Made by a program: the position numbers and the translations under genes. The notes below the pieces were generated by a model that saw only the letters and a list, made by a program, of their open reading frames with translations, was not told where the DNA came from and ran no database searches. From the IMG/VR virus record IMGVR_UViG_2698536454_000007: a stretch of DNA of 38,464 nt. One strand, 5' to 3'. The DNA is from a virus. Lineage: Duplodnaviria; Heunggongvirae; Uroviricota; Caudoviricetes. Position 1 is the first letter of the stretch. Each line of letters opens with the position of its first letter. This document shows, piece after piece, positions 1 through 14,206 of the stretch.

Positions 1-487
1 TGGCGTTAACTTCTGGCATTTTCATCAACGCTTCAACGATATGTCCGTCGAATGTTGCCATGTCTTCCTGCAACAATTCCTGTGCGCTAATCACCATATC
101 AACGGTGATGTTTTCACATGTGTCGAACTTAACCATGACAGCGTTCTGTACTTCAGGGGCCAGCTTGTCAAAAGTGACGTTCATCGGATCGGATTCAGTC
201 TCAACCGGGACAAAGGAAGCAGACTCCTCATCCCAGCGGTTTTCCTGCATATATTCAGCATCCCAGGAATCGAGGGCAGGGCGGGGTATGCCGGGTTTAT
301 CCTCACAGACAATAAATTTATAAGCGCAGTCCTGAGCTGCAGGGAATTGCTCCAGAAATTGCCAATGAAATTTTGCGCGTGCGCGACGCTCATCACCAGC
401 TTCAATGGCAGTGGCCACCGCAACAGCGCTATCTTCTTTTATGGCCTGTTCATCAGGAATAGCAGCGCAAATAAAGACTTTACTCAT
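1..487 (-). CDS. YdfE-like prophage protein, N-terminal part; the gene runs off the left edge of the window
   Basis: Minus-strand ATG at 487..485 preceded by GAGGTAA Shine-Dalgarno; frame stays open to position 1 (MSKVFICAAIPDEQAIKEDSAVAVATAIEAGDERRARAKFHWQFLEQ...). It is the last gene of the dicB-type operon by position. Product assignment is by synteny and recollection only. Confidence 0.5.
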   Translation of the reverse strand, partial: MSKVFICAAIPDEQAIKEDSAVAVATAIEAGDERRARAKFHWQFLEQFPAAQDCAYKFIVCEDKPGIPRPALDSWDAEYMQENRWDEESASFVPVETESDPMNVTFDKLAPEVQNAVMVKFDTCENITVDMVISAQELLQEDMATFDGHIVEALMKMPEVNA

Positions 488-579
488 TTTGTTTTACCTC
501 ATTACAGATTTAAGGGTGAACAAATCCCTGCCATTGCTGGCATATAAGAATGAAACCGGATGTTTATTACGGAACTGTT

Positions 580-771
580 TTAAAGACCTGCCGGGATTTC
601 GTTATTATCCTGGTGAATAACTTTATCGACCGGGTAACAGTTACCGGGAATTTTCCGTTCGGTTGCTGCAGTCACACACTCCTGCATTGTCCTGTGAACA
701 CTGACTGCAATATCAACTGGCTCTCCGGAAACAAGAAAAACTGTCAGAACAAGTGCAAATGCTGTATTCAT
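580..771 (-). CDS. ydfD: YdfD-like small protein (63 aa) with hydrophobic N-terminus; the Qin homologue is reported to cause lysis
   Basis: ATG at 771..769 overlaps the dicB stop in an ATGA arrangement (translational coupling). Product MNTAFALVLTVFLVSGEPVD..., 63 aa, same length and position as ydfD downstream of dicB in Qin. Confidence 0.6.
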   Translation of the reverse strand: MNTAFALVLTVFLVSGEPVDIAVSVHRTMQECVTAATERKIPGNCYPVDKVIHQDNNEIPAGL

Positions 772-956
772 TGCCAGCATCCTTTTTGTATCGGACGTAA
801 ACGGGCCAGCATTGAAAGAATGCATATTTTATTTAATAGCTCCCGTTCGTGTTTTCTCTTGTTAATGGCATCTTCAGTAAATACAGGGTTACTGATAGTG
901 ACACCAATTTCAAAACAACCTTCAGACGTATTAACGTTTGGTAATAACGTTTCCAT
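768..956 (-). CDS. dicB: Cell division inhibitor DicB (62 aa)
   Basis: ATG at 956 with GAGGA Shine-Dalgarno 7 nt upstream. Product METLLPNVNTSEGCFEIGVTISNPVFTEDAINKRKHERELLNKICILSMLARLRPIQKGCWQ matches my recollection of E. coli DicB, and it sits immediately downstream of DicF. Confidence 0.8.
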   Translation of the reverse strand: METLLPNVNTSEGCFEIGVTISNPVFTEDAINKRKHERELLNKICILSMLARLRPIQKGCWQ

Positions 957-1130
957 TATCGCGTCCTCAACAATGAATTTTGTGATGTGGTGCCTGGTGC
1001 CTCCAGGTGACGTTAACCAGTTAACAATTAACGCCGGATACAGAGAATCCACCCATAACACTGTTTTTGGTTTTAACTGTTCCGCGTGCGCTCAGCCGCA
1101 TTCACCGCATCACAAAATTCACTTTAAAAA

Positions 1131-1183
1131 CGGCGGCAGAGCAGTCACGGAGTAAAACTGATACCGCCAAACGTCACCAGAAA
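1131..1183 (-). ncRNA. dicF: DicF small regulatory RNA (about 53 nt, processed from the dicB operon transcript)
   Basis: Reverse complement of 1131-1183 reads TTTCTGGTGACGTTTGGCGGTATCAGTTTTACTCCGTGACTGCTCTGCCGCCG followed by TTTTT, matching the DicF sequence as I recall it at 52 of 53 positions. It lies between ydfC-like and dicB as in Qin. Ends are approximate. Confidence 0.7.
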
Positions 1184-1523
1184 ATTGATAACAGAGGGCG
1201 TTGCAGCGGGGTTGTCGCTTAAGCGTATGGTCAACCTGACAACCCGGTGTCCTCAACGGGGAAGGAATAACCCCGCCATACTTACCGCCGCGCCATTTCG
1301 CGGAGTGCCACAACCGGAAGCGCACGGTCGACGAAAATTTAACGACAGGCTATCTATGAACCAGCTACCTCGCCGTGCGCTTTCGCGTTATGGTCTGACT
1401 TTTCATGGAAATATCCTTTCAGTAAACTGTCAGTGCCGGATGCTCACCCATGTCCGGCGCACGCACTCCACCTCACCCGTGGAGAACTCCTTAATTACCA
1501 ACCTTAGCTTCGTTGGTTAGCTA

Positions 1524-1742
1524 TTAACGCGGGTATGTAATCATTCTGGCAATGCTTAATGCCGCTGCTTTTTCCAGCCTGGTGATATCCTGCTCCAGAG
1601 CGGACAGATTTTCAGCCTGCTTAGCCCTGGCTTCATTGGCCCATTTCAGATCCTGCGCTGCATTAATTTTCTGGCGCATCCACTCATAAAGTTCATCATC
1701 GGTATAGTCTGGCGAGATGATGACGGGTTCTCGTTTCTGCAT
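1524..1742 (-). CDS. YdfC-like small prophage protein (72 aa)
   Basis: ATG at 1742 with AGGA Shine-Dalgarno 6 nt upstream; third gene of a tightly packed leftward operon; size and order match Qin ydfC. Confidence 0.6.
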   Translation of the reverse strand: MQKREPVIISPDYTDDELYEWMRQKINAAQDLKWANEARAKQAENLSALEQDITRLEKAAALSIARMITYPR

Positions 1743-1771
1743 ACTGATTCCTCGCGGTGCTGCTTCGCTTA

Positions 1772-1900
1772 TCAGCCGTTAGATTTTGCCGAGCTGGAAA
1801 GCGCCTGTTTAAACTCACTGAAGCTGAGAGCTTCTTCGCCTTCGGCAAGGCCTTCGAAGTATTCTTCGTAAGCCTTTTCCATGATTGTGTCGAAATCCAT
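1772..1900 (-). CDS. YdfB-like small acidic protein (42 aa)
   Basis: ATG at 1900, one base after the upstream gene's TGA stop (TGAtATG). Product MDFDTIMEKAYEEYFEGLAEGEEALSFSEFKQALSSSAKSNG. Below the 60-aa cutoff of the ORF track; found by manual translation. Confidence 0.55.
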   Translation of the reverse strand: MDFDTIMEKAYEEYFEGLAEGEEALSFSEFKQALSSSAKSNG

Positions 1901-1901
1901 A

Positions 1902-2057
1902 TCACTCACCTGAGTTTCTTTCCAGCCAGCGACGGGCACCATTTTCGGTTTTAAACGTTTTGCTTCTGGTATACGTCATCGCGGTAAACGTGCCGTCCTG
2001 GTTGGGAAACACGCCGCATACCAGAGATTCGTTGTTGCCAAGATCGATAGTATTCAT
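1902..2057 (-). CDS. YdfA-like small prophage protein (51 aa; the DUF1391 family name is recalled, not verified)
   Basis: ATG at 2057 with GAGG Shine-Dalgarno 5-6 nt upstream. Product MNTIDLGNNESLVCGVFPNQDGTFTAMTYTRSKTFKTENGARRWLERNSGE. First gene downstream of the operator palindrome. Confidence 0.6.
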   Translation of the reverse strand: MNTIDLGNNESLVCGVFPNQDGTFTAMTYTRSKTFKTENGARRWLERNSGE

Positions 2058-2145
2058 GCTGACCTCATTTCCCCTTAACGCCGGGGTAGCGGAACTGTTT
2101 GCTGAGAACACCGTGCGGTGTCTTGGTGGAGATTAATTTAGAATA

Positions 2146-2192
2146 ACCTAACAAATGTGGCAAGTATTTTTGTTAGATTGATCTAACAAAAA
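2146..2192. promoter_or_regulatory. Operator/promoter region of the leftward dicB-type operon: perfect palindrome TTGTTAGAT-TG-ATCTAACAA plus a CCTAACAAA half-site
   Basis: The 9-bp inverted repeat at 2171-2190 is seen directly; a related half-site lies at 2147-2155. It sits between the repressor gene's stop and the first operon gene. Confidence 0.55.
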
Positions 2193-2224
2193 GAGTGAGG
2201 GAATCTAAGTATCTGAAAGGAGTG

Positions 2225-2632
2225 TTATTTTATTGATTTGTTTTTACGTGCTTTAAGCATTTCTTCGAAGAGTTTATTGAAATTCTCTACTCTTGCGCGC
2301 ATTTCAGACAGTAAGGCTTCCTGCTCGGAGGAGGGAAGAGCATCGAATAATTCGATCAATTCTTTGTGGCTGGGAGTTAACTCGGTTTCCACATGAAGTT
2401 CTTGTGCTGGCACTGGTGCCTTGTCTTCGTCACCAAACATTAGCCATGTAGGCGAGCACTTCAGCGCATCAGCTAAAGCAAATAACCGCTTCCCGACCGG
2501 TTGGGTTTCGTCTCTTTCCCATTGTGAAATTGTGACGTGAGCTACCCCAGCGAGGCGTGCAGCTTCTCGTTGTGTTAGGCGTAATTCTTTTCGTCGTGCC
2601 AGAACTCGCTGGCCTAGGGTTCTTGTATCCAT
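2225..2632 (-). CDS. dicA: DicA-like prophage repressor, XRE-family HTH, 135 aa, no LexA-like cleavage domain
   Basis: N-terminal HTH (LTQREAARLAGVAHVTISQWERDETQP) and a C-terminal region ...LFALADALKCSPTWLMFGDEDK...ELIELFDALPSSEQEALLSEMRARVENFNKLFEEMLKAR that closely matches recalled DicA. Divergent from a Cro-like gene. No obvious Shine-Dalgarno upstream. Confidence 0.85.
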   Translation of the reverse strand: MDTRTLGQRVLARRKELRLTQREAARLAGVAHVTISQWERDETQPVGKRLFALADALKCSPTWLMFGDEDKAPVPAQELHVETELTPSHKELIELFDALPSSEQEALLSEMRARVENFNKLFEEMLKARKNKSIK

Positions 2633-2681
2633 AGTTAGGTAATTCTAATTTTTCTTGACTTAGGTATCCCGCGCACATTGC

Positions 2682-2699
2682 TGTTAGGAATATCTAACA
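2682..2699. promoter_or_regulatory. Operator in the divergent dicA/dicC intergenic region (TGTTAGG-AAT-ATCTAACA)
   Basis: Imperfect palindrome sharing the TGTTAG/CTAACA half-sites with the 2171-2190 operator; located between the divergent start codons at 2632 and 2713. Confidence 0.5.
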
Positions 2700-2712
2700 A
2701 GAGGGGGCTTTG

Positions 2713-2940
2713 ATGCTTAAAGTTGACGCAATTACTTTTTTTGGCAGCAAAACAAAACTTGCCAATGCCGCAGGAGTGAAACTGGCAAGTGTTGCTGCAT
2801 GGGGGGAACTGGTTCCTGAAGGTCGCGCGATGCGCCTGCAAGAGGCATCCGGCGGGGAACTTCAGTACGACCCCAAAGTTTATGACGAATATCGTAAGGC
2901 AAAGCGGGCGGGGCGGTTGAACAATGAAAATCACCCCTGA
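2713..2940 (+). CDS. dicC: DicC-like Cro-type regulator (75 aa)
   Basis: ATG at 2713 with GAGGGGG Shine-Dalgarno 5 nt upstream. Product MLKVDAITFFGSKTKLANAAGVKLASVAAWGELVPEGRAMRLQEASGGELQYDPKVYDEYRKAKRAGRLNNENHP resembles recalled DicC. The ORF-track entry at 2710 is a TTG-extended version. Confidence 0.75.
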   Translation: MLKVDAITFFGSKTKLANAAGVKLASVAAWGELVPEGRAMRLQEASGGELQYDPKVYDEYRKAKRAGRLNNENHP

Positions 2941-3445
2941 ACAGGTTTGTGAGGCTCTGGATGCCTGGGTATGCCGACCAGGAATGACACAGGAGCAGGC
3001 GACGATATTAATCACGGAAGCATTCTGGGCTCTGAAAGAACGCCCGAACATCGATGTTCAACGCGTCACGTTTAATGATGGCGAGGTTGATCAACGGGCG
3101 TTGGGCGTTAACCGGGTGAAGATATTCGAACGCTGGAAAGCTATCGACACCAGGGATAAGCGGGAAAAATTCACGGCGCTGATTCCGGCAATTATGGAGG
3201 CTATCCGGATCAGCGATTTCAGGTTGTATTGTGAAATTACTGACGGAAAAAGCATTACGTACATGATCGCCGGGTTAAACAAAGAATATGGTGATGTGGT
3301 GGAGTCCGGGCTGCTTTTTGCGGATCCATCTGTTGTGGAACGTGAGACTGACGAGCTTATAGAAAAAGCTATTGCTTTCAAGCATGCGTATCGTCAGCAA
3401 TACCAACAAAAAGCTGGATGGAATTATGAGCCTTCTTTTTGCTGA
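2924..3445 (+). CDS. YdaT-like early regulatory protein (173 aa); function tentative
   Basis: Second gene of the rightward operon, overlapping the Cro-like stop; position corresponds to ydaT after ydaS in Rac-type prophages. Weak Shine-Dalgarno. Confidence 0.45.
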   Translation: MKITPEQVCEALDAWVCRPGMTQEQATILITEAFWALKERPNIDVQRVTFNDGEVDQRALGVNRVKIFERWKAIDTRDKREKFTALIPAIMEAIRISDFRLYCEITDGKSITYMIAGLNKEYGDVVESGLLFADPSVVERETDELIEKAIAFKHAYRQQYQQKAGWNYEPSFC

Positions 3446-4391
3446 ACGCCCACTGGTTATAAACACACAGCTTGCGATGAAGATTGGCTTAAATGAAGCC
3501 ATTGTGTTGCAGCAGTTGCATTACTGGTTGAGAGATACCAGTTCCGGTATGGAATGTGACGGGGTTCGCTGGATTTATAACACAACAGAACAATGGCTGG
3601 AACAGTTCCCGTTCTGGTCAGAGTCAACGTTAAAACGCGCATTTGCAAGTCTGAAAACGCTGGGGCTTTTGCGTTGCGAAAAGCTCAACAAATCAAAGCG
3701 TGATATGACTAATTTTTACACGATTAATTACGAGAGTGAGCTTTTAGATGGTGGCAAAGTGAGCGAATCCATCAGGTCAAAATGCGCCGCTCCATCGGGT
3801 CAAAATGACACGATGGAAGAGGTCAAAATGGCACGCTCCATTGGTTCAAAACGACCCAATGTCATCGGGTCAAAATGGCCTGATGATCTTACAGAGAATA
3901 CAACAGAGATTACTACAGAGAATAAAAACACTTCTCGTCCGGAAGCTTCGCAACCGGACCCGCAGACGGCTGAACAGGATTTTTTAACCCGACACCCTGA
4001 CGCGGTTGTGTTCAGTGCGAAAAAACGCCAGTGGGGAAGTCAGGAAGATTTGGCGTGCGCACAGTGGATCTGGGGACGAATCGTGAGTCTTTACGAGCAG
4101 GCTGCCAGCGATGATGGCGAGATCACGCGACCGAAAGAACCAAACTGGACCGCATGGGCCAATGACGTGCGCACAATGCGGATGCTGGATGGCAGAAGCC
4201 ACAGACAAATTTGCGAAATGTTTGGTCGGGTACAGCGAGATCCATTCTGGGTAAAAAACATCATGAGCCCGTCAAAGCTTCGCGAAAAATGGGACGACCT
4301 GGTCATCCGCCTGGGGCGTTCACCTGTACAGTGTTGTGTGAATCATATTTCTGAACCGGATACCGAAATTCCGCCTGGTTTCAGGGGATAA
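3426..4391 (+). CDS. Replication initiator (replisome-organizer / O-like protein) with the origin iterons inside the gene
   Basis: N-terminal winged-helix-like region (LVINTQLAMKIGLNEAIVLQQLHYWL...) typical of phage replisome organizers; five direct repeats lie within its linker-coding region. The start is ambiguous (ATG 3426 versus ATG 3384 or TTG 3372). Confidence 0.75.
   Translation: MSLLFAERPLVINTQLAMKIGLNEAIVLQQLHYWLRDTSSGMECDGVRWIYNTTEQWLEQFPFWSESTLKRAFASLKTLGLLRCEKLNKSKRDMTNFYTINYESELLDGGKVSESIRSKCAAPSGQNDTMEEVKMARSIGSKRPNVIGSKWPDDLTENTTEITTENKNTSRPEASQPDPQTAEQDFLTRHPDAVVFSAKKRQWGSQEDLACAQWIWGRIVSLYEQAASDDGEITRPKEPNWTAWANDVRTMRMLDGRSHRQICEMFGRVQRDPFWVKNIMSPSKLREKWDDLVIRLGRSPVQCCVNHISEPDTEIPPGFRG
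3768..3877. repeat. Putative replication origin: five ~23-bp iterons (core GGTCAAAATG) followed by an A-rich repeated segment
   Basis: Direct repeats TCCATCAGGTCAAAATG (3768), TCCATCGGGTCAAAATG (3791), AGAGGTCAAAATG (3818), TCCATTGGTTCAAAACG (3837), GTCATCGGGTCAAAATG (3861), then ACAGAGAATA repeats at 3891-3925. Lambda likewise has its ori iterons inside O. Confidence 0.7.
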
Positions 4392-4431
4392 GTGGTGATT
4401 TTAGGGCATAAAGTAATGTTCAGGAGGACTT

Positions 4432-4839
4432 ATGGCAAAAGTATTTACACAGGAAGAGCGGGAAAAAATTAAAGGACAGGTGGTGGAACTCGTGCGCCAG
4501 AGCGGTCGTGAGACGTTACGGCAACTGGAAGCTAAAACAGGTGCGACAAGATATCTGATGAGCGTTCTTGCCAGAGAGCTGGTTGCCAGTGGTGATGTAT
4601 ATCACTCTGGCTATGGGGTGTTCCCGTCAGAACGGGCTCGTAAGGACTGGCAAAACGCCCGCAAAAAACTCTCGAGGGCAAAGGTGAAGAAACCTGTTGT
4701 GGTTGATCCGGGCCTTATCTGGACATTACCCGACGGAGAAATACGCCGCTACGACAGGCGTATGAACATAATCTGTCGCGAGTGCCGGAAGAGCGAAGTT
4801 ATGCAGCGTGTATTGGCGTTCTATCAGGGATATGCCTAG
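4432..4839 (+). CDS. Hypothetical protein (135 aa), basic, possibly DNA-binding
   Basis: Strong AGGAGG Shine-Dalgarno 6 nt before ATG 4432; base composition like the phage backbone; no family recognised. Confidence 0.6.
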   Translation: MAKVFTQEEREKIKGQVVELVRQSGRETLRQLEAKTGATRYLMSVLARELVASGDVYHSGYGVFPSERARKDWQNARKKLSRAKVKKPVVVDPGLIWTLPDGEIRRYDRRMNIICRECRKSEVMQRVLAFYQGYA

Positions 4840-5207
4840 AATTGTCACAGGTAATGAAATTAAAGAGTATTGGTTCGGATATGAATTGACATTTTCGCGG
4901 CACAGAGCTAAAAATAGCCTACTTGTTGGTTTTGTGTGAAAAGCAGACATTTTGAGGCTCAGGATTTGTTATCAAATAAGACCAATACTTATCTATATTA
5001 ATACACATTAAATACTGTGCAATACATTATTACATTTTATTAGATAAGCGATATTTAGGGAAAAGAAAAGTCATAGAAAACAGGCCGCTATTTGTTGTTG
5101 GATTTTATAGGCTATATCTAGATTATCTTGCCACTGCGGTCTCTGTTTACCTAACAGCTTGGGCTTCTTTGCATGCAAGTTTGTAATAACAAGAGTAATC
5201 AAACGGA

Positions 5208-6239
5208 ATGTCTATTAATCCTAAACTTAAGCGTATCGCGCGACGCTATCCAGCGTTATTCCAATATGAGTCCCCCTATATGGCAAGAAAATTAATAATA
5301 TTCGGCAACGGTCTCGGTATGGCTTTAGATCCTGCTCACTTCTCCTTAGACAGAGCGTTGGAAGAAATTTGGCATCGCCCCAATTTTTTAAAAGATATCC
5401 ACAAGCAACTTATCGAGCGTTGTCTTCAGCGGCAAGGTCCACCAGAAGGAGAACATGAGTTGGATACCCTTCACCAGGCTGTCACATATTGTAAAGCTCT
5501 TGCTCAAATTGGAGAGGGGAACGTGCATTGGCTTACTGAAGATGGACTAAACTTCCCCAAAATTACCGCCACTTATATTCACAAAGTTGCAACCAGGTTG
5601 CATAATTACGATAAAGGTTTGCCACAAAGATTCGAAAATGCGCTTGTGGAGTTTGTAAAGAACACACACTCACATATCGCGACATTAAACTATGACAAAT
5701 TATTATACAATTCATTCATAGATAATGATATATTCAACGGGTATGATGGGGTTTTAGTTGATGGGATGCTAAGCCACGGATTTTCCTCTGCAGCGCTCGA
5801 ACGGAAATACAATCGTAGGTTTGGTTATTATTTGCACTTGCATGGTTCACCACTATTTATTAATCAGCATGAAAATGTTTTAAAACTTTCACGCTCACAA
5901 CTTACTCTTGACATAGATGAACCTAGTGAGCATATAGTGTTAACTCATATAAAAAGAAAACCGTCAGTTATAGCAGCATCTAATGTTCTTTCTACGTACT
6001 GGGATTATTTGCAGTTTGCATTATTTGAATCAGAAGAAATAATATTGTTTGGTTACTCTGGTCTCGATATTCACCTTAACCTGCTTATTCGACCTTACCT
6101 AACCTCTAAGCCTTTAAGAGTAATTGAGTGGAGCGGTGCTGGTGAACAAAACGCTCGTGAGATATATTGGAAAAACCAGTTGAGACGGGAAGTTACTGTA
6201 ATTAGGTTGGATAACATCACTGATTTTATTGATTGGTAG
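5208..6239 (+). CDS. Standalone SIR2-like (sirtuin-fold, predicted NAD-binding) protein, 343 aa; candidate anti-phage effector
   Basis: Motifs in sirtuin order: Gly-rich IIFGNGLGMA (res ~31-40), TLNYDKLL (compare sirtuin TQNIDxL), HLHGS (catalytic-His HG motif), ILFGYSGLD (GYS/GTS motif). The gene and its flanks are visibly AT-rich relative to neighbours. Weak Shine-Dalgarno (ACGGA). Confidence 0.65.
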   Translation: MSINPKLKRIARRYPALFQYESPYMARKLIIFGNGLGMALDPAHFSLDRALEEIWHRPNFLKDIHKQLIERCLQRQGPPEGEHELDTLHQAVTYCKALAQIGEGNVHWLTEDGLNFPKITATYIHKVATRLHNYDKGLPQRFENALVEFVKNTHSHIATLNYDKLLYNSFIDNDIFNGYDGVLVDGMLSHGFSSAALERKYNRRFGYYLHLHGSPLFINQHENVLKLSRSQLTLDIDEPSEHIVLTHIKRKPSVIAASNVLSTYWDYLQFALFESEEIILFGYSGLDIHLNLLIRPYLTSKPLRVIEWSGAGEQNAREIYWKNQLRREVTVIRLDNITDFIDW

Positions 6240-6553
6240 CGCAATGCGAAGTTAAAGAGGCAGCCTCATATTTATCAGAGCTGGTGTACGTCCAATACAG
6301 GAGGTTATCGTGCTGGTTCTCAAATGCGCGCTGGCTATTGCGGCTGTAGTGGCAATTTATTGTCTTGCTATTGTTCTTATGGATCGCCTTTCTGATTGAT
6401 TTTATATTGGCGAGGTGACGGGAGTTAAGTAGAATTGCTGCGGGTGCTTGAGGCTGTCTGCCTCGGGCATGCCACCGTAAGGCAGACAGAGAAAAGCCCC
6501 AGTTAACATTACGCGTCCTGCAAGACGCTTAACATTAATCTGAGGCCCAATCT

Positions 6554-6766
6554 ATGCTTCACAAACGTAGGTTAGCCTCTTACGCGCCGAAAGGCAAGGA
6601 GAAGCAGGCTATGAAGCAGCAAAAGGCGATGTTAATCGCCCTGATCGTCATCTGTTTAACCGTCATAGTGACGGCACTGGTAACGAGGAAAGACCTCTGC
6701 GAGGTACGAATCCGAACCGGCCAGACGGAGGTCGCTGTCTTCACAGCTTACGAACCTGAGGAGTAA
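6554..6766 (+). CDS. mok: Mok-like reading frame, an in-frame N-terminal extension of hok (70 aa)
   Basis: ATG at 6554 with GAGG upstream; same frame and stop as hok, as in chromosomal mok/hok loci. Confidence 0.5.
   Translation: MLHKRRLASYAPKGKEKQAMKQQKAMLIALIVICLTVIVTALVTRKDLCEVRIRTGQTEVAVFTAYEPEE
6611..6766 (+). CDS. hok: Hok/Gef-family type I toxin (51 aa), HokD/RelF-like
   Basis: Product MKQQKAMLIALIVICLTVIVTALVTRKDLCEVRIRTGQTEVAVFTAYEPEE: a single transmembrane helix plus the conserved Hok C-terminal region; AGGAG upstream; fold-back stem (CTGTCTGCC...GGCAGACAG) in the 5' leader at 6457-6490. Confidence 0.85.
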   Translation: MKQQKAMLIALIVICLTVIVTALVTRKDLCEVRIRTGQTEVAVFTAYEPEE

Positions 6767-6834
6767 GAGACCAGGCGGGGGAGAAATCCCTCGCCACCGC
6801 TGATGTGTCAGGCATCCTCAACGCACCCGCACTT

Positions 6835-6866
6835 AACCCGCTTCGGCGGGTTTTTGTTTTTATTTT
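6835..6866 (+). terminator. Rho-independent terminator downstream of hok
   Basis: CCCGC-TTCG-GCGGG hairpin followed by TTTTTGTTTTTATTTT. Confidence 0.7.
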
Positions 6867-6982
6867 CAACGCATTTGAAGTTCTGGACGGTGTCGGAATA
6901 GAATCAAAAATACTTAAGTAGCGCGCAGGGATAAGAGGGATGGTCCCTTAAAGGGGAGAGCTAATTATCCGGAAGGATTCTG

Positions 6983-7234
6983 ATGATGAACATCGAAGAA
7001 CTGCGTAAAATTTTTTGTGAAGATGGCCTCTATGCTGTGTGCGTTGAAAATGGAAATATTGTTAGTCATTACCGCATTGTGTGTTTGCGAAAGAATGGGG
7101 CTGCGTTAATTAATTTTGTGGATGGTCGAGTGACAGACGGATTTATCTTGCGCGAAGGTGAGTTTGTCACTTCATTACAGGCACTGAAAGAGATCGGAAT
7201 AAAAGCTGGCTTTTCTGCTTTTTCAGAAGAATAA
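6983..7234 (+). CDS. Rem-like small prophage protein (83 aa), function unknown
   Basis: GGAAGGA Shine-Dalgarno before ATG 6983; size and position (between hok and the DUF968 gene) match rem of Qin. Confidence 0.55.
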   Translation: MMNIEELRKIFCEDGLYAVCVENGNIVSHYRIVCLRKNGAALINFVDGRVTDGFILREGEFVTSLQALKEIGIKAGFSAFSEE

Positions 7235-7300
7235 ACTCATCTACAATCTTGCGCGGGGCTGAACTCCCGCTGAGTAACACCGTGCCGCCGGAGGAAACCG

Positions 7301-7579
7301 ATGGCACGCAACGCAAAATATTACAATCATGATAATTCGACCGTTCTTGCCCACACGCACGAGCGGTATTCTCACGCATTTAAGTCAGACTGGTACCAGC
7401 ATCCCCCATGCACTGAAGAACAGGCCGAATGGCTCATTCAGTGTTACCGCAGGCGCGGATGCGAGGTTAAAAAAGCCCTTAGCCTCGACTACCGTCACTG
7501 GATAATCTCCGTCGGGCTTCCTTACTCCGAACGCCCACCGCGTCTGTCCCGCACATTCCAGCAACGCATCTGGAGGTAA
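7301..7579 (+). CDS. Hypothetical protein (92 aa)
   Basis: GGAGGAAA Shine-Dalgarno 5 nt before ATG 7301; stop abuts the GTG start of the next gene. Confidence 0.55.
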   Translation: MARNAKYYNHDNSTVLAHTHERYSHAFKSDWYQHPPCTEEQAEWLIQCYRRRGCEVKKALSLDYRHWIISVGLPYSERPPRLSRTFQQRIWR

Positions 7580-7580
7580 C

Positions 7581-8630
7581 GTGCGGGTATTACTTCGACC
7601 TGTTCTGGTACCGGAACTCGGGCTGGTGGTCCTTAAGCCCGGTCGCGAATCACTGCCGGTTTTTCATTGCGGCAGGGTGCTGGTGGAGCCGGAACCGAAA
7701 AGCATGCGCGGTCTGCCGTCCGGAGTCGTCCCTGCCGTTCGCCAGCCGCTGGCGGAGGATAAATCATTACTGCCATTTTTCAGCGATGAGCGTGTGATTC
7801 GTGCTGCTGGCGGCGCTGGCGCACTGTCTGACTGGCTCCTGCGTCATGTCAAATCCTGCCAGTGGCCTCATGGTGACTACCATCACAGTGAAACCGTCAT
7901 ACATCGTTATGGTACCGGCGCAATGGTGTTGTGCTGGCACTGCGACAACCAGCTGCGCGACCAGACCTCCGAATCACTCGGGCAACTTGCTCACCAAAAC
8001 CTGTCTGCATGGATGATTGACGTCATACGCCATGCAATGAATGGCTCGCAGGAACGGGAATTATCGCTGGCTGAATTATCCTGGTGGGCGATCCGCAATC
8101 AGGTGGCGGACGCGCTACCGGAAGCGGTATTACGTCGTTCGCTGGGGTTGCGTGCGGAAAAAATCCGCTCAATGTACCGTGAAAGCGACATCGTACCGGG
8201 AGAGCAGACCGCCACCAGCATACTGAAACAGCGCACAAAAAATCTTGCGCCGCTGCCTCACGCCCACCAGCAACAGAACCCGCCACAGGAAAAGACGGTG
8301 GTCAGCATTGCTGTTGATCCGGAGTCTCCGGAATCTTTAATGAAGCGACCTAAACGTCGCCGTTGGGTAAATGAGAAATATACGCGCTGGGTAAAGACAC
8401 AGCCGTGTGCGTGTTGTGGTAAGCCAGCCGACGATCCCCATCACCTGATTGGTCATGGTCAGGGCGGAATAGGGACAAAAGCCCACGATATTTTCACGCT
8501 ACCGTTGTGCCGGGAGCATCACAACGAACTTCATGCTGATCCGCTGGCATTTGAAGAAAAGCATGGTTCCCAGATTGATTTAATTTTTCGTTTTCTTGAT
8601 CGCGCCTTTGCAACCGGCGTGCTCGGGTAA
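7581..8630 (+). CDS. DUF968-family protein (YdfU-like, 349 aa) with a C-terminal Cys/His-rich HNH-like motif
   Basis: GTG start with GGAGG 5 nt upstream; C-terminal CACCGKPADDPHHLIGHGQGG...LCREHHNELH; size and synteny match ydfU. Confidence 0.75.
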   Translation: MRVLLRPVLVPELGLVVLKPGRESLPVFHCGRVLVEPEPKSMRGLPSGVVPAVRQPLAEDKSLLPFFSDERVIRAAGGAGALSDWLLRHVKSCQWPHGDYHHSETVIHRYGTGAMVLCWHCDNQLRDQTSESLGQLAHQNLSAWMIDVIRHAMNGSQERELSLAELSWWAIRNQVADALPEAVLRRSLGLRAEKIRSMYRESDIVPGEQTATSILKQRTKNLAPLPHAHQQQNPPQEKTVVSIAVDPESPESLMKRPKRRRWVNEKYTRWVKTQPCACCGKPADDPHHLIGHGQGGIGTKAHDIFTLPLCREHHNELHADPLAFEEKHGSQIDLIFRFLDRAFATGVLG

Positions 8631-8642
8631 AAGAGGTTACTG

Positions 8643-9002
8643 ATGCGTATAGAGTTTGTTTTGCCTTACCCGCCGACGGTGAACACCTACTGGCGACGTC
8701 GTGGCAGCACATATTTTGTGTCAAAAGCCGGTGAGCGTTATCGCCGGGATGTGGCACTTATTGTTCGCCAGCAGCGGCTGAAATTAAACCTGTCCGGAAG
8801 GCTGGCGATAAAGATTATTGCAGAGCCACCGGATAAGCGCCGCCGCGACCTGGACAATATCCTGAAGGCACCACTGGATGCGCTTACGCATGCCGGACTA
8901 CTTATAGACGACGAGCAGTTTGATGAAATCAATATTGTGCGCGGTCAGCTCGTTTCTGGTGGGCGGCTGGGCGTGAAGATTTACAAAATTGAAAGTGAGT
9001 GA
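8643..9002 (+). CDS. rusA: Holliday junction resolvase RusA
   Basis: 119 aa; motifs PPTVNTYW and RRRDLDNILKAPLDALT are characteristic of RusA; AAGAGG Shine-Dalgarno. Confidence 0.85.
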   Translation: MRIEFVLPYPPTVNTYWRRRGSTYFVSKAGERYRRDVALIVRQQRLKLNLSGRLAIKIIAEPPDKRRRDLDNILKAPLDALTHAGLLIDDEQFDEINIVRGQLVSGGRLGVKIYKIESE

Positions 9003-9010
9003 GCATAAAT

Positions 9011-9565
9011 ATGATATACCCGGAAATTACAGGCAAAAGCGGTGAGCATTTACGCCTGAAAACGCTGGAAAGTGTCTGGATCCAGGGGAAACTGCGTATG
9101 TGGGGGCGTTGGTCGTATATTGGCGACGGTAAGACGGGAAATATGTTCAACCAATTACTGATCTCTAAAAAGCTGACAAAAACGGCAATTAACGAGGCGC
9201 TCCGGAGGATGAAAAAAGCGGGTCTGGACAAACCTGAACTTGAGGCTTTTTTGCGGGATATGATCAACGGCAATCAAAAAAGCTGGCTGGCACATTGTAC
9301 CGATTCAGAGGCGTTAATAATCGACAGGGTTATTGGTGAAGTACTGGCAGGTTATCCCGGGCTGCTCAATGTTCTGAGTCAGCGTTATGTGGGGCGGGGG
9401 ATGACTAAGCGCAAAATGGCTGAACTGCTGAATGATGCACATCCGGAATGGAGTTTAAGAACCTGTGAAAGACGCATTGAGCATTGGCTAAAGGTGGCAG
9501 AATTTATTTTGTACAAACCAATGGTTATGGCTTTTGGTATAGAGAAAAAAGTTATTGCTTTTTGA
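9011..9565 (+). CDS. Late-gene antiterminator Q-like protein
   Basis: Position (after rusA, immediately before an intrinsic terminator and the late-operon cargo and lysis genes) is the canonical Q slot; family assignment is by synteny. Alternative GTG start at 8999. Confidence 0.55.
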   Translation: MIYPEITGKSGEHLRLKTLESVWIQGKLRMWGRWSYIGDGKTGNMFNQLLISKKLTKTAINEALRRMKKAGLDKPELEAFLRDMINGNQKSWLAHCTDSEALIIDRVIGEVLAGYPGLLNVLSQRYVGRGMTKRKMAELLNDAHPEWSLRTCERRIEHWLKVAEFILYKPMVMAFGIEKKVIAF

Positions 9566-9642
9566 CGTAAAAACTGCTTCAATTCCGGTAAGCTTCGCAA
9601 AGCTGTACCGCGAGGCGAATAGCAGACATGGACATTTGAAAG

Positions 9643-9667
9643 AGCCCGCTTTTTGCGGGTTTTTTTA
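9643..9667 (+). terminator. Intrinsic terminator downstream of Q (tR'-like); the late promoter presumably lies in 9566-9640
   Basis: GCCCGC-TTTTT-GCGGG hairpin followed by a run of 7 T. The promoter itself is not resolved. Confidence 0.65.
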
Positions 9668-9987
9668 TGACTGAAAAACGGCACGGGGCGTTAAACGCGC
9701 TGGTGGTTGCTAATACCGGTCTTTCAACTTGCTGGCTTTTTCGACAAGAGTTATTGGTATGTCACGTTAACCGGAAAATGGAAAAAGGCATGCTAAAACA
9801 GCAGGATATGACCGAAACCGCCAGAGTGGTGTTTAATGAATTAAGCGTCACCGAACCGGCGACCGCCGGGGAAATTGCGCAGAACACTTATCTTTCACGC
9901 GAACGCTGCCAGTTAATACTGACCCAGCTTGTTATGGCGGGTCTGGCAGATTATCAGTTCGGTTGTTACAGACGCCTTCCTCAGTGA
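9667..9987 (+). CDS. Small putative winged-helix DNA-binding protein; start codon uncertain (9667, 9778 or 9790)
   Basis: C-terminal part ATAGEIAQNTYLSRERCQLILTQLVMAGLA looks like an HTH; none of the candidate starts has a good Shine-Dalgarno. Confidence 0.35.
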   Translation: MTEKRHGALNALVVANTGLSTCWLFRQELLVCHVNRKMEKGMLKQQDMTETARVVFNELSVTEPATAGEIAQNTYLSRERCQLILTQLVMAGLADYQFGCYRRLPQ

Positions 9988-10137
9988 AGGCTTTTTTATT
10001 TGTGGTAATGGGCGGCTGGTGGGTGTTAGCGGCACCTGCCAGCCATCTGCTCATGCGTTGGGGTCACAAGCAAACCTCAGGCCCATCTGCTTTGCGCAAA
10101 AGCGGTATGAGCCTATCAGAGAAGTGCTTATTGATCT

Positions 10138-11196
10138 ATGGCTAATACTGTAAAAATATCCAGTTGTGAGTTAATCAACGCTGATTGCCTGGAATTTATC
10201 CAGACCTTACCGGAAAACTCTGTCGATCTGATAGTCACAGACCCGCCATACTTTAAAGTGAAGCCCGAGGGCTGGGATAACCAGTGGAAGGGCGACGATG
10301 ATTACCTGAAGTGGCTGGACCAGTGTCTGGCGCAGTTCTGGCGGGTGCTGAAACCTGCCGGAAGTCTTTACCTGTTCTGTGGTCATCGCCTGGCATCTGA
10401 TATCGAAATCATGATGCGTGAACGCTTCAGTGTGCTGAACCATATTATCTGGGCGAAGCCGTCCGGACGCTGGAACGGATGCAACAAGGAAAGCCTGCGG
10501 GCGTATTTCCCCGCCACAGAGCGCATTCTGTTCGCGGAACATTATCAGGGGCCGTATCGTCCGAAAGATGCCGGGTATGCGGCGAAGGGCAGTGCACTGA
10601 AACAGCATGTGATGGCCCCGCTGATTTCTTACTTTCGTGATGCGCGCGCGGCCCTGGGGATAACGGCAAAACAGATTGCAGATGCCACAGGAAAGAAAAA
10701 CATGGTGTCGCACTGGTTCAGTGCCAGTCAGTGGCAGCTACCGAACGAAAGCGATTATCTGAAATTACAGTCGCTGTTTGCCCGGGTGGCAGAAGAGAAA
10801 CATCAGCGGGGAGAACTGGAAAAGTCCCATTACCAACTGGTCAGCACATACAGTGAGCTGAACCGGCAGTATATGGAACTGCTGAGTGAATATAAGCATC
10901 TGCGGCGGTATTTTGGCGTGACGGTGCAGGTGCCGTATACCGATGTGTGGACGCATAAACCGGTGCAGTTCTATCCCGGGAAACATCCGTGCGAAAAACC
11001 GGCAGAAATGCTGCAGCAGATAATCAGCGCTAGCAGTCGTCCGGGTGACCTGATTGCAGATTTTTTCATGGGGTCGGGTTCGACAGTGAAAGCGGCACTG
11101 GCGCTCGGGCGTCGTGCAATTGGCGTTGAGCTGGAGACTGAACGTTTTGAGCAGACGGTTCGGGAAGTACAGGATTTAGTCAGCCAGAACGGATGA
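10138..11196 (+). CDS. Orphan DNA N6-adenine methyltransferase, beta class (DPPY before FxGxG)
   Basis: Motif IV VTDPPY near the N-terminus and motif I FFMGSGST near the C-terminus; no endonuclease gene adjacent. Confidence 0.85.
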   Translation: MANTVKISSCELINADCLEFIQTLPENSVDLIVTDPPYFKVKPEGWDNQWKGDDDYLKWLDQCLAQFWRVLKPAGSLYLFCGHRLASDIEIMMRERFSVLNHIIWAKPSGRWNGCNKESLRAYFPATERILFAEHYQGPYRPKDAGYAAKGSALKQHVMAPLISYFRDARAALGITAKQIADATGKKNMVSHWFSASQWQLPNESDYLKLQSLFARVAEEKHQRGELEKSHYQLVSTYSELNRQYMELLSEYKHLRRYFGVTVQVPYTDVWTHKPVQFYPGKHPCEKPAEMLQQIISASSRPGDLIADFFMGSGSTVKAALALGRRAIGVELETERFEQTVREVQDLVSQNG

Positions 11197-11236
11197 TATT
11201 GAAGAATTAATTACGCGTCGTTATTATGCGGCTCCC

Positions 11237-11312
11237 GGCCCTTTAGCTCAGTGGTGAGAGCGAGCGACTCATAATCGCCAGGTCGCTGGTTCAAATCCAG
11301 CAAGGGCCACCA
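11237..11312 (+). tRNA. ileZ: tRNA with CAU anticodon (Met or lysidine-modified Ile2; ileZ-like)
   Basis: Cloverleaf: acceptor GGCCCTT/AAGGGCC, D-arm AGCTCAGTGGTGAGAGC, anticodon loop CTCATAA, T-arm GGTTCAAATCC, 3' CCA. Confidence 0.85.
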
Positions 11313-11319
11313 TCACATA

Positions 11320-11396
11320 CCGCTATTAGCTCATCAGGAAAGAGCGCCAGCCTTCGAAGCTGGCTGCGCGGGGTTCAAGTCCCCGATGGCGGTCCA
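11320..11396 (+). tRNA. argN: tRNA-Arg (anticodon UCG)
   Basis: Acceptor CCGCTAT/ATGGCGG, anticodon stem-loop GCCAG-CCTTCGAA-CTGGC, T-arm GGTTCAAGTCC, CCA end. Confidence 0.85.
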
Positions 11397-11409
11397 TTAT
11401 CTGCATCAT

Positions 11410-11486
11410 GCGTTGTTAGCTCAGCCGGACAGAGCAATTGCCTTCTAAGCAATCGGTCACTGGTTCGAATCCAGTACAACGCGCCA
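11410..11486 (+). tRNA. argO: tRNA-Arg (anticodon UCU, reads AGA)
   Basis: Acceptor GCGTTGT/ACAACGC, anticodon loop CCTTCTAAG, T-arm GGTTCGAATCC, CCA end. Confidence 0.85.
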
Positions 11487-11502
11487 CACTTATTTTCCCT
11501 GG

Positions 11503-11529
11503 CTCGCTTTTGCGGGCTTTTTTTTAAAT
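11503..11529 (+). terminator. Terminator after the tRNA cluster
   Basis: CTCGC-TTTT-GCGGG hairpin followed by CTTTTTTTTT. Confidence 0.6.
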
Positions 11530-11974
11530 GTCTCACAATTCAGACGGTTGACAGTTGTCTGTTTTGCGGGGAGTTTGTTAAAAGAAACTGGCATGGTGAA
11601 TCCCCCTGTGCGGAGGGGCAATCAGCGAGTAGGTATATGGGATAATCGCGGATTCAGGTGCTGGTACTGAATTCACCGGGAGGCACCCGGCACCATGCAA
11701 TGGCACATAGCGCCACTCTCCAGCCCCTCTCCGGAGGGGCTTTCTTATGGACAAAAAAAGCCCGCGCTGGGAGACGCGGGCGGCAAGGAATAAACAACAA
11801 AACGTGAAGTAATATTTCAGCTGGCGAATAATATCCGACAGTAATCACTCTGCGCAATAGCGCGGCCTTTTTCGTATTGCGGGCTGTTGTCTCTCTTCTG
11901 CCATTGTCCTGTAACTTCCGGACTTCAGCCCGCTCCTCATTTTACTCACAATATTATCCCGGCCGGGAGGATTC

Positions 11975-13837: not shown

Positions 13838-13986
13838 AAAGTGAGCCAGTCAAATGGAAAGTATCGTTAAACTCACCGGTAGTGTCAGTGGGTCGTCTGA
13901 GACGCCTGCATGAGTTATCAGAGCCATCAGTACTTAACTGGTGGCTTTTTTATTGTTGTCAGCTTCCGGATAACGGGAGACGGGGT

Positions 13987-14202
13987 ATGTACCAGATGGA
14001 AAAAATCACAACAGGTGTGTCATACACCACGTCAGCGGTGGGAACGGGCTACTGGTTCCTGCAGTTGCTGGACAGGGTTTCCCCGTCTCAGTGGGCGGCA
14101 ATAGGCGTGCTGGGGAGTCTGCTGTTTGGGCTGCTGACATATCTGACTAACCTGTATTTCAAAATCAGAGAGGACCGTCGTAAGGCGGCACGGGGAGAGT
14201 AA
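13987..14202 (+). CDS. S: Class II pinholin, S21-type, with dual-start motif (Met1 and Met4)
   Basis: [71 protein letters not shown], 71 aa; GGGAGACGGGG Shine-Dalgarno. Confidence 0.85.
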
Positions 14203-14206
14203 TTCA

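What the first reader, a model, noticed from the sequence alone, without database searches (positions are those of the whole stretch)
580..1183. Complete DicF-dicB-ydfD module: sRNA plus cell-division inhibitor plus lysis-associated peptide
The minus strand carries a 53-nt sequence matching DicF at 52 of 53 recalled positions, followed by dicB (62 aa, good Shine-Dalgarno) and an ATGA-coupled ydfD-like gene. DicF targets ftsZ and other mRNAs, and DicB has been reported to block phage lambda infection through the mannose transporter, so this operon is a second potential exclusion function in the window. About 340 nt between the ydfC-like stop and DicF (1184-1523) is structured but non-coding, consistent with the precursor that is processed to release DicF.
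Basis: partly seen in the sequence, partly recalled or inferred. Interest (0 to 1): 0.5.

Follow-up and report, generated by a model that had tools for sequence, protein, structure and literature searches.

The report
Known DicF-dicB-ydfD prophage operon copy

Summary
DicF lies at 1183..1131 (-). It scores 72.5 bits against Rfam (threshold 48) and is 52/53 identical to K-12 dicF. dicB (956..768) matches Pfam and NCBIfam DicB over its full length. ydfD (771..580) is 59/63 identical to K-12 YdfD and overlaps dicB by ATGA. The surroundings reproduce the whole Qin dicBF operon: ydfA-ydfB-ydfC upstream, a sigma70-like promoter flanked by operator palindromes, a DicA-family repressor, a DicC/Cro gene and, 6 kb away, the antirepressor Rem. 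The same 1-kb DNA occurs in 4745 of 5426 complete E. coli genomes and in cultured phages. The 340-nt leader is moderately structured (z = -2.9), and the expected RNase III site sits in a ~20-bp helix. Two things differ from Qin. This copy sits in a complete-looking mosaic lambdoid prophage, and its repressor is heteroimmune (57% identity). One caveat: phage exclusion by DicB requires derepression. Already known; low interest.

The parts
1..487 (-). 5' part of the large exonuclease gene, the intact counterpart of the K-12 ydfE pseudogene. It runs off the window start and is the next gene of the operon after ydfD.
   Evidence: The ORF starts at ATG 487. The 99.9%-identical record L001 annotates an 823-aa 'exonuclease' here. 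K-12 has ydfE at the same position.
580..771 (-). ydfD, 63-aa lysis protein (DUF1482), translationally coupled to dicB by an ATGA overlap.
   Evidence: PF07358 83.7 bits; phrog_1092; 59/63 identical to K-12 YdfD, with both cysteines kept.
768..956 (-). dicB, 62-aa cell-division inhibitor.
   Evidence: PF05358 127.4 bits over 1-62/62; NF049927 132.7 bits against a cut-off of 100; 56/62 identical to K-12 DicB. The identical protein occurs on at least 80 IMG/VR contigs.
964..968 (-). dicB Shine-Dalgarno GAGGA, 8 nt upstream of the ATG. It is predicted to lie at the foot of the spacer duplex.
   Evidence: Sequence; folds.
957..1130 (-). dicF-dicB spacer, a multi-hairpin RNA domain closed by a ~27-bp long-range duplex (1130-1103 paired with 992-964). 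It contains the position of the published RNase III-generated 3' end of the 72-nt DicF form (about 1112).
   Evidence: MFE -67.9 kcal/mol, z = -5.16, 0 of 200 shuffles as stable. RNAalifold finds the same duplex in 49 distinct sequences, but with no covariation support. The 72-nt form is described in PMC5069750. There is a sub-threshold Rfam STnc100 match, 35.3 bits against 47.
1131..1183 (-). DicF sRNA (53 nt): single-stranded 5' seed, stem-loop GGCGG...CCGCC, followed by UUUUU at 1130-1126 (intrinsic terminator).
   Evidence: RF00039 72.5 bits, E 2.9e-14; 52/53 identical to K-12; predicted fold.
1184..1523 (-). Non-coding leader/precursor between ydfC and DicF. It includes an imperfect hairpin of about 20 bp (about 1392-1370 paired with 1329-1307) that contains the expected RNase III cut giving the 190-nt species (about 1320). 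An AU-rich single-stranded junction (CAAU|UUUC) at 1184/1183 is the RNase E site.
   Evidence: 96.5% identical to K-12; z = -2.89; site mapping; processing literature; no codon-phase bias, 38/36/31.
1524..1742 (-). ydfC (72 aa).
   Evidence: 70/72 identical to K-12 YdfC; phrog_1744; PGAP name in L001.
1772..1900 (-). ydfB (42 aa).
   Evidence: Identical to K-12 YdfB; phrog_2061.
1902..2057 (-). ydfA (51 aa, DUF1391), first gene of the operon.
   Evidence: PF07151 99.2 bits; 48/51 identical to K-12.
2135..2189 (-). Candidate dicB promoter (TTGCCA-17-TAAATT, 2163..2135) with two operator-like palindromes TTGTTAG-N6-CTAACAA: 2170-2189 is perfect, and 2135-2154 has 3 mismatches and overlaps the -10.
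   Evidence: An OL-type arrangement is described for Qin.
2225..2632 (-). DicA-family repressor (135 aa, HTH only, no S24 peptidase domain), heteroimmune to Qin DicA.
   Evidence: NF007257 224 bits against a cut-off of 101; HTH_3 only; 57% identical to K-12 DicA.
2681..2700 (.). Third copy of the operator palindrome (1 mismatch), in the dicA/dicC intergenic region (OR-type).
2713..2940 (+). DicC/Cro-type regulator, divergent from the repressor.
   Evidence: NF007282 166.7 bits against a cut-off of 130; P22_Cro 50.3 bits.
6983..7234 (+). rem, an orthologue of the Qin antirepressor that relieves DicA repression of the dicBF operon.
   Evidence: 79/83 identical to K-12 Rem; intact ORF; function.

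Best explanation
The segment is an intact copy of the dicBF operon, the leftward early (pL-equivalent) operon of a Qin/P22-immC-type lambdoid prophage of Escherichia coli. In the lysogen a DicA-family repressor binds palindromic operators at the promoter upstream of ydfA and keeps the operon almost silent. The operon is derepressed by the antirepressor Rem, by stress, or spontaneously in a subpopulation. One transcript then runs ydfA-ydfB-ydfC-leader-DicF. Part of it stops at the DicF terminator and part reads on into dicB-ydfD-exonuclease. RNase III cuts a hairpin about 137 nt upstream of DicF, giving the 190-nt form. RNase E cuts at the AU-rich junction, giving the 53-nt DicF. On read-through transcripts RNase III cuts the long spacer duplex, giving the 72-nt form. 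DicF binds Hfq. It represses ftsZ translation through its 3' region, and xylR, pykA and manX through its 5' region. DicB binds MinC and sends it to midcell, which blocks Z rings. Through the same MinC interaction it disables ManYZ, so lambda-like phages cannot inject DNA. YdfD, translated by coupling to dicB, binds IspG and lyses dividing cells, and DicB counteracts this lysis. What is shown here: the identity, integrity and arrangement of all parts. What is taken from the K-12 literature by near-identity: the processing sites and the molecular targets. What is inferred only: the operator and promoter assignment for this heteroimmune repressor.
For: - **Family matches.** Rfam DicF 72.5 bits against 48. 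Pfam and NCBIfam DicB cover the full length above their cut-offs. DUF1482, DUF1391, DicA and DicC models are all above cut-off.
- **Identity to K-12 Qin, feature by feature.** ydfA 95.5%, ydfB 99.2%, ydfC 97.7%, leader 96.5%, DicF 52/53, spacer 97.7%, ydfD 96.9%, all in the same order and spacing.
- **Integrity.** All ORFs are intact.
- **Distribution.** The 1-kb query matches in 4745 of 5426 complete E. coli genomes, with a median of 2 places per genome. It also matches in 60 phage records, and phage Tritos annotates DicF, DicB and YdfD there.
- **Control region.** The promoter and three operator palindromes are confined to the immunity region.
- **RNase III sites.** The expected sites fall inside predicted helices.
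- **Antirepressor.** Rem is 95% identical to K-12 Rem.
- **Mechanism literature.**
Against: - Nothing contradicts the identification.
- No expression or processing data exist for this copy.
- The repressor is only 57% identical to Qin DicA, so its control by Rem and the operator assignment are untested.
- DicB differs from K-12 DicB at 6 of 62 residues, 4 of them in the last 9, with unknown effect on MinC binding.
- My crude DicF-ftsZ duplex energy did not stand out from shuffles: 70 of 1000 shuffles did as well.
- RNA structures have no covariation support because the homologues are about 96% identical.
Confidence: 0.93

Rival explanations
1. The module is present, but its real role here is in lytic development of a live phage: host take-over by arresting division, like lambda Kil. 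It would not be superinfection exclusion for the lysogen. Any exclusion would be a by-product seen only on artificial induction.
For: - The operon occupies the pL position and is repressed in lysogens.
- Protection against lambda was shown after transient induction.
- Unlike Qin, this copy sits in a prophage with complete-looking replication, lysis, terminase, head and tail modules.
- The same module is carried by isolated phages.
- PADLOC has no model for any of its proteins.
Against: - DicF accumulates in stationary phase and the promoter fires spontaneously in a subpopulation of K-12 cells, so some lysogen-level expression exists.
- The two roles are not mutually exclusive.
Confidence: 0.45
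2. The copy is a silent relic: the sequence is preserved but no longer expressed or functional, for example because the promoter or operators are dead or the DicB allele is inactive.
For: Many dicBF copies lie in defective prophages. Another prophage of the closely related strain 602687 carries ydfD as a pseudogene with an internal stop. Six residues differ from K-12 DicB.
Against: - All seven ORFs of the operon, the repressor, DicC and Rem are intact.
- The promoter-like site and operators are present.
- DicF is identical to the tested K-12 RNA over nt 1-52.
- This exact DicB allele occurs on at least 80 independent viral contigs, which argues for purifying selection.
Confidence: 0.05
3. The DicF match is a chance resemblance or a mere terminator hairpin.
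For: None beyond the short length (53 nt).
Against: E 2.9e-14 against Rfam, 52/53 identity to K-12, and conserved synteny on both sides over 2 kb.
Confidence: 0.01

Closest known systems
dicBF operon (ydfABC-dicF-dicB-ydfDE) of cryptic prophage Qin, E. coli K-12 MG1655 (b1571-b1577)
   Same: The gene order, spacing and overlap are the same. Nucleotide identity is 94-99% for every part from ydfA to ydfD, and DicF is 52/53 identical. It has the same kind of repressor/Cro/antirepressor circuit.
   Different: - The repressor is heteroimmune, 57% identical, with different operator sequences.
- The gene after ydfD is a full-length exonuclease, not the IS2-truncated ydfE pseudogene.
- The surrounding prophage has full lysis and structural modules, whereas Qin lacks them.
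- DicB differs in its C-terminal residues.
Multiple dicF/dicBF copies in lambdoid prophages of pathogenic E. coli (O157:H7 Sakai/EDL933) and in isolated phages (Tritos, mEp460, PhiR42_1, Stx2-converting phages)
   Same: The module is carried by different lambdoid prophages, often several per genome: a median of 2 and up to 10 places per genome.
   Different: Some of those copies carry a DicF variant that keeps the 5' seed but has a replaced stem-loop (11 of 88 loci), or lack ydfB/ydfC. The window has the canonical DicF and the full gene set.
Lambda Kil and Rac KilR: other small FtsZ-ring inhibitors encoded in the pL operons of lambdoid (pro)phages (from my own knowledge, not tested here)
   Same: Same genomic niche (early leftward operon) and same outcome (block of cell division on derepression).
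   Different: The sequences are unrelated and the mechanism differs: DicB acts through MinC. There is no accompanying sRNA.
STnc100 (Rfam RF02076) / PasD prophage sRNAs
   Same: The dicF-dicB spacer shares the closing helix GGUGAAU...CACC and the hairpin CC(N)GG-AGGCA-CC(N)GG, with a local E of 5.5e-6. A true STnc100 lies at 11562-11752 in the same window.
   Different: The spacer scores 35.3 bits, below the gathering score of 47. It has no terminator of its own, since the model's 3' hairpin falls on the dicB start. It is part of an mRNA leader, not a free-standing sRNA gene. Membership is not established.

Membership tests
DicF sRNA (Rfam RF00039) | Covariance-model score at or above the curated gathering score over the full model | tested here: met
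   72.5 bits against 48, model positions 1-52/52, E 2.9e-14.
DicF sRNA (Rfam RF00039) | 5' single-stranded region (pairs with xylR and pykA) and 3' region (pairs with the ftsZ RBS) as in the experimentally tested K-12 RNA | tested here: met
   Nt 1-52 are identical to K-12 b1574 and only nt 53 differs. The pairing regions were defined by compensatory mutants in PMC5069750. My own duplex-energy test was uninformative.
DicF sRNA (Rfam RF00039) | Ends in an intrinsic terminator (GC stem plus U run) | tested here: met
   The stem GGCGGUA.CAG../..CUG...UGCCGCC is followed by UUUUU. The simple terminator scan missed it because its loop limit is 8 nt.
DicF sRNA (Rfam RF00039) | Lies inside the dicB operon between ydfC and dicB, preceded by the processed leader | tested here: met
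   Synteny and 96.5% identity of the leader to K-12. The expected RNase III site lies in a predicted helix.
DicF sRNA (Rfam RF00039) | [quoted passage not shown] | not testable with these tools
   Known for K-12 only.
DicB (Pfam PF05358; NCBIfam NF049927) | Full-length profile match above the curated cut-offs | tested here: met
   127.4 bits against 27 and 132.7 bits against 100, residues 1-62 on profile 1-62.
DicB (Pfam PF05358; NCBIfam NF049927) | Encoded downstream of dicF under a DicA-type repressor | tested here: met
DicB (Pfam PF05358; NCBIfam NF049927) | Binds MinC, blocks Z-ring formation and inhibits ManYZ | not testable with these tools
   Literature for the K-12 allele. The window allele differs at 6 of 62 residues.
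YdfD lysis protein (DUF1482, PF07358) | Profile match above cut-off and near-identity to K-12 YdfD, including both cysteines and intact ends | tested here: met
   83.7 bits against 25. 59/63 identical, same length, C32 and C45 kept. An intact protein is required for lysis.
YdfD lysis protein (DUF1482, PF07358) | Overlaps dicB (shared operon, translational coupling) | tested here: met
   ATGA at 771-768, the same as K-12, where coordinates 4295-4298 are shared.
YdfD lysis protein (DUF1482, PF07358) | Binds IspG and lyses dividing cells | not testable with these tools
   PMC8835842.
Qin/P22-immC-type immunity region controlling dicBp | Short non-cleavable DicA-type repressor, divergent DicC/Cro, repeated operators at both promoters, Rem antirepressor | tested here: met
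   DicA model 224 bits with HTH only; DicC 166.7 bits; palindromes at 2135-2154, 2170-2189 and 2681-2700; Rem 95% identical to K-12. Binding itself was not tested.
Catalogued anti-phage defence system (PADLOC-DB 2.0) | Any operon protein matches a defence-system model | tested here: not met
   No hits for DicB, YdfD, YdfA, YdfB, YdfC or the exonuclease N-terminus at E<=0.001.
STnc100 sRNA (Rfam RF02076), considered for the dicF-dicB spacer | Score at or above the gathering score; own terminator | tested here: not met
   35.3 bits against 47. The 3' terminator hairpin of the model is not matched.
HK022 put antiterminator RNA, considered for the spacer and leader | Sequence similarity to putL or putR | tested here: not met
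   No alignment better than chance anywhere in the HK022 genome. This was a sequence-level test only.

The most novel reading that the evidence does not exclude
The dicF-dicB spacer is more than a linker. It is a conserved, strongly structured RNA domain distantly related to the STnc100/PasD prophage sRNAs. Its ~27-bp closing duplex pairs the tail of the DicF terminator with the dicB ribosome-binding region. On this reading, RNase III cleavage of the duplex creates the 72-nt DicF. It also trims the dicB leader about 25-29 nt before the ATG and unmasks the Shine-Dalgarno. That would couple maturation of the sRNA to translation of the division inhibitor, and through ATGA coupling to translation of YdfD. 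I found no statement of this coupling in the papers I read. It applies equally to K-12 Qin, so it is not special to this window.
Probability: 0.25. Interest if true: 0.3.

Novelty: already known. Interest (0 to 1): 0.08.

Why it matters
The main value is for annotation. The automated RefSeq records of near-identical prophages name dicB but leave dicF unannotated and call ydfD only 'DUF1482'. The window can therefore be labelled more precisely than the public records. Biologically, it shows the dicBF module in a complete-looking, heteroimmune lambdoid prophage rather than in the defective Qin. This fits the view that the module is a mobile cassette of the early-left operon, reassorted among phages with a recombination boundary inside the ydfC-DicF leader. 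It opens no new question about DicF, DicB or YdfD themselves.

Tried and rejected
1. **HK022 put-like antiterminator** in the spacer or leader. blastn of both, and of STnc100, against the whole HK022 genome gave only chance-level matches. Rejected at the sequence level.
2. **DicF-ftsZ pairing recomputed with RNAduplex against shuffles.** Observed -38.9 kcal/mol against -32.3 +/- 4.3 for shuffles, and 70 of 1000 shuffles did as well. The test is uninformative, so the claim rests on identity to the tested K-12 RNA.
3. **Codon-phase periodicity of substitutions**, to test whether the leader is non-coding. There is no bias in the leader (38/36/31), but the positive controls are weak (ydfC shows none; only ydfD reaches p=0.04). 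The result is consistent with non-coding but has low power.
4. **Covariation for the RNA structures.** The RNAalifold covariation term is -0.22, and 1 of 126 pairs has a double change. The homologues are too similar to test structure this way.
5. **Candidate ORFs in the non-coding stretches.**
   - The 111-aa opposite-strand ORF (1185-1520) has no PHROG or Pfam family.
   - The 68-aa ORF (1325..1119) that runs through DicF matches only part of phrog_8854, probably a family of over-called ORFs.
   - A 13-codon ORF at 1406..1365 (MKSQTITRKRTAR) with an AAGGA upstream is not conserved in length or sequence in related loci.
   - All three rejected as genes.
6. **LexA box upstream of rem.** There is no CTGT-N8-ACAG anywhere in the window.
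7. **Genome-wide RNase III maps.** PMC6212723 and PMC5371410 cite DicF only as precedent and report no site data for this locus.
8. **PADLOC.** Nothing for the operon proteins.

Full report
**Observation.**
- Rfam's DicF model (RF00039) matches 1131-1182 at 72.5 bits against a gathering score of 48, E 2.9e-14. It is the only DicF hit in the 38-kb window.
- Aligned to the K-12 MG1655 reference, the 53-nt RNA annotated there corresponds to window 1183..1131. It is identical at 52 of 53 positions, and only the last base differs, G for C. Six of 88 related loci share this minor allele.
- The 62-codon ORF 956..768 covers Pfam DicB (PF05358) end to end at 127.4 bits. It passes the NCBIfam DicB cut-off at 132.7 bits against 100.
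- GAGGA sits 8 nt upstream of the dicB ATG.
- The 63-codon ORF 771..580 matches DUF1482 at 83.7 bits and is 59/63 identical to K-12 YdfD, which RefSeq names 'lysis protein'.
- The dicB stop and the ydfD start overlap as ATGA.

**Surroundings.**
- The finding is the distal part of a complete dicBF operon. Upstream lie ydfC (1742..1524), ydfB (1900..1772) and ydfA (2057..1902), 96-99% identical in DNA to Qin.
- Next comes a sigma70-like promoter, TTGCCA-17-TAAATT, at 2163..2135.
- A 20-bp palindrome, TTGTTAG-N6-CTAACAA, occurs at 2170-2189 (perfect) and at 2135-2154 (over the -10). A third copy lies at 2681-2700, in the gap between the repressor gene and the divergent Cro-like gene. This is the OL/OR layout described for Qin.
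- The repressor (2632..2225) passes the NCBIfam DicA model at 224 bits and has only an HTH domain. It is only 57% identical to Qin DicA, so this prophage has a different immunity.
- The Cro-like gene passes the DicC model.
- Six kilobases away, rem (6983-7234) encodes a protein 79/83 identical to the Qin antirepressor Rem.

**Which element it belongs to.**
- Window 1-14546 is 99.9% identical to a prophage next to yccA in E. coli strain 602687. Every ORF annotated there is intact in the window, apart from YdfR, which spans the end of that identity block.
- Window 14000-38464 is 100% identical to the late region (lysis, terminase, portal, capsid, tail, gpJ, tail fibre) of a different prophage of the same strain. 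That prophage's own dicBF copy has a K-12-type DicA and a ydfD pseudogene.
- The window is therefore a mosaic lambdoid prophage that looks complete from the exonuclease gene to the tail fibres, unlike the defective Qin.

**How common it is.**
- The 1-kb stretch from ydfC's end to ydfD matches in 4745 of 5426 complete E. coli genomes. The median is two places per genome and the maximum is ten.
- It also matches in 60 phage records, and phage Tritos annotates DicF, DicB and YdfD at the match.
- A species-level scan found DicB only in Escherichia and Shigella, plus one obviously contaminated 'Veillonella' MAG.
- At least 80 viral contigs encode exactly this DicB allele.
- In 48 of 88 related loci, homology upstream of DicF breaks off inside the ydfC-DicF leader. 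About 79 of the 88 keep everything from about 1403 down to DicF. The mobile unit therefore appears to be 'distal leader + DicF + spacer + dicB + ydfD'.

**Mechanism.** The three products have been studied directly in K-12.
- *Transcription and repression.* The operon is transcribed from dicBp as one RNA and is repressed by DicA. It is derepressed by Rem, by urea or heat, or spontaneously in a subpopulation.
- *Processing.* RNase III cleavage gives a 190-nt DicF species and RNase E gives the 53-nt form. The 3' end comes from intrinsic termination or, on full-length transcripts, from RNase III, which gives a 72-nt form.
- *DicF.* It represses ftsZ through its 3' region and xylR and pykA through its 5' region, as shown by compensatory mutations.
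- *DicB.* Through MinC it blocks division, and it makes cells about 100-fold more resistant to lambda and other ManYZ-dependent phages.
- *YdfD.* It binds IspG and lyses cells unless division is blocked, for example by DicB.
- *Transfer to this copy.* Window DicF is identical to the tested RNA over nt 1-52 and the proteins are 90-94% identical. I therefore transfer these functions with high but not complete confidence.

**The non-coding stretches.**
- It has no annotated gene in K-12 or in PGAP records and shows no codon-phase bias, although that test is weak.
- The 5' end of the 190-nt species should lie 137 nt upstream of DicF, at about 1320. In the predicted fold that position is inside an imperfect helix of about 20 bp (1392-1370 paired with 1329-1307), as expected for an RNase III substrate.
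- The dicF-dicB spacer is more strongly structured: -67.9 kcal/mol, z = -5.16, with 0 of 200 shuffles as stable.
- Both the single-sequence fold and the RNAalifold consensus of 49 distinct homologues pair 1130-1103 with 992-964. This duplex of about 27 bp starts in the terminator's U-tail and ends in the dicB Shine-Dalgarno. It encloses four hairpins.
- The 3' end of the published 72-nt DicF maps to about 1112, inside this duplex.
- I infer that this duplex is the RNase III site, and that cutting it would also shorten the dicB leader and free its ribosome-binding site. This is a hypothesis. Covariation cannot test it because the sequences are about 96% identical (covariation term -0.22).

**Side observation.**
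- Rfam's STnc100 model matches the spacer below threshold: 35.3 bits against 47, with a local E of 5.5e-6. The two share the closing helix and the CC(N)GG-AGGCA-CC(N)GG hairpin. A true STnc100 copy lies at 11562-11752 (139 bits).
- A 2026 preprint relates STnc100 to the PasD sRNAs but does not mention DicF or dicB.
- I tested whether the spacer could be an HK022 put-type antiterminator and found no similarity.

**Assessment of the interpretation.** It is supported, with one qualification about 'exclusion'. The protective effect of DicB was demonstrated after induction of an operon that is normally repressed. None of its proteins is in PADLOC. In a live prophage the operon is at least as likely to serve lytic development, by arresting host division as other pL-operon inhibitors do.

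**Verdict.** The module is already known and nearly ubiquitous in E. coli. Interest is low. The only mildly new points are the heteroimmune, complete-looking prophage context and the untested idea about the spacer duplex, which applies equally to K-12.

Noticed in passing
window 957-1130 (-): The dicF-dicB spacer is a strongly structured domain (z = -5.2). It is closed by a ~27-bp duplex that reaches the dicB Shine-Dalgarno, and it has a sub-threshold match to Rfam STnc100 (35.3 bits against 47).
   Followed up: partly
window 11562-11752 (+), with tRNAs at 11237-11483 (+): A full STnc100 sRNA (139 bits) lies directly after a cluster of three tRNA genes (annotated Ile, Arg, Arg in the near-identical record). 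This is the position where Stx phages carry stx. Here a DUF6645 gene follows.
   Followed up: no
window 6442-6766 (+): A sok antisense RNA (Rfam, 116 bits) and hokD (51 aa, intact) form a type I toxin-antitoxin pair just upstream of rem, as in Qin.
   Followed up: no
window 5280-6239 (+): An intact 319-aa SIR2-family protein lies between the replication genes and hok/sok, with weak PADLOC matches (Aga_SIR2 and PDC-S21, E about 1e-5 to 1e-6).
   Followed up: partly
L005, L010, L040, L070, L076, L085 and others, at the DicF position: 11 of 88 related loci carry a DicF variant that keeps the 5' seed (TTTCTGGTGACGTTTGGCGG) but has a different stem-loop (CATCTGTTTGCCCATGAACTGATGTCCGCC). That variant would lose the K-12 ftsZ-pairing sequence. 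L009, L030 and L034 have dicB with no canonical DicF.
   Followed up: partly
window 1-14546 versus 14000-38464: The window is a mosaic. Its early region is 99.9% identical to one prophage of strain 602687 (at yccA), and its late region is 100% identical to another prophage of the same strain (at tRNA-Ser/mtfA). The junction lies near the holin/YdfR genes (about 14.5 kb).
   Followed up: partly
L001 20037-20605 and L092 42219-42788 (RefSeq records): PGAP annotates dicB but not dicF in these near-identical prophages, and names ydfD only 'DUF1482 family protein'. The curated K-12 record and phage Tritos do annotate DicF.
   Followed up: yes
L092 42973-43164: In strain 602687 the second dicBF copy has ydfD as a pseudogene (internal stop) while dicB is intact.
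   Followed up: no
window 2225-2632 (-) and 6983-7234 (+): The repressor has diverged to 57% identity from Qin DicA, with a different HTH region and a conserved C-terminal third. The antirepressor Rem is 95% identical. Whether Rem still acts on this repressor is open. No LexA box was found anywhere in the window.
   Followed up: partly
window 1365-1406 (-): A 13-codon ORF (MKSQTITRKRTAR) with an AAGGA 7 nt upstream lies in the 5' arm of the RNase III hairpin. It is arginine/lysine-rich, but its stop and sequence are not conserved in related loci, so it is probably not a gene.
   Followed up: partly
L007 (JAGZPX010000007.1): A contig labelled as a Veillonella parvula MAG carries an E. coli-type dicBF locus (DicB 85%, spacer 98%). 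This is almost certainly a binning contaminant.
   Followed up: no
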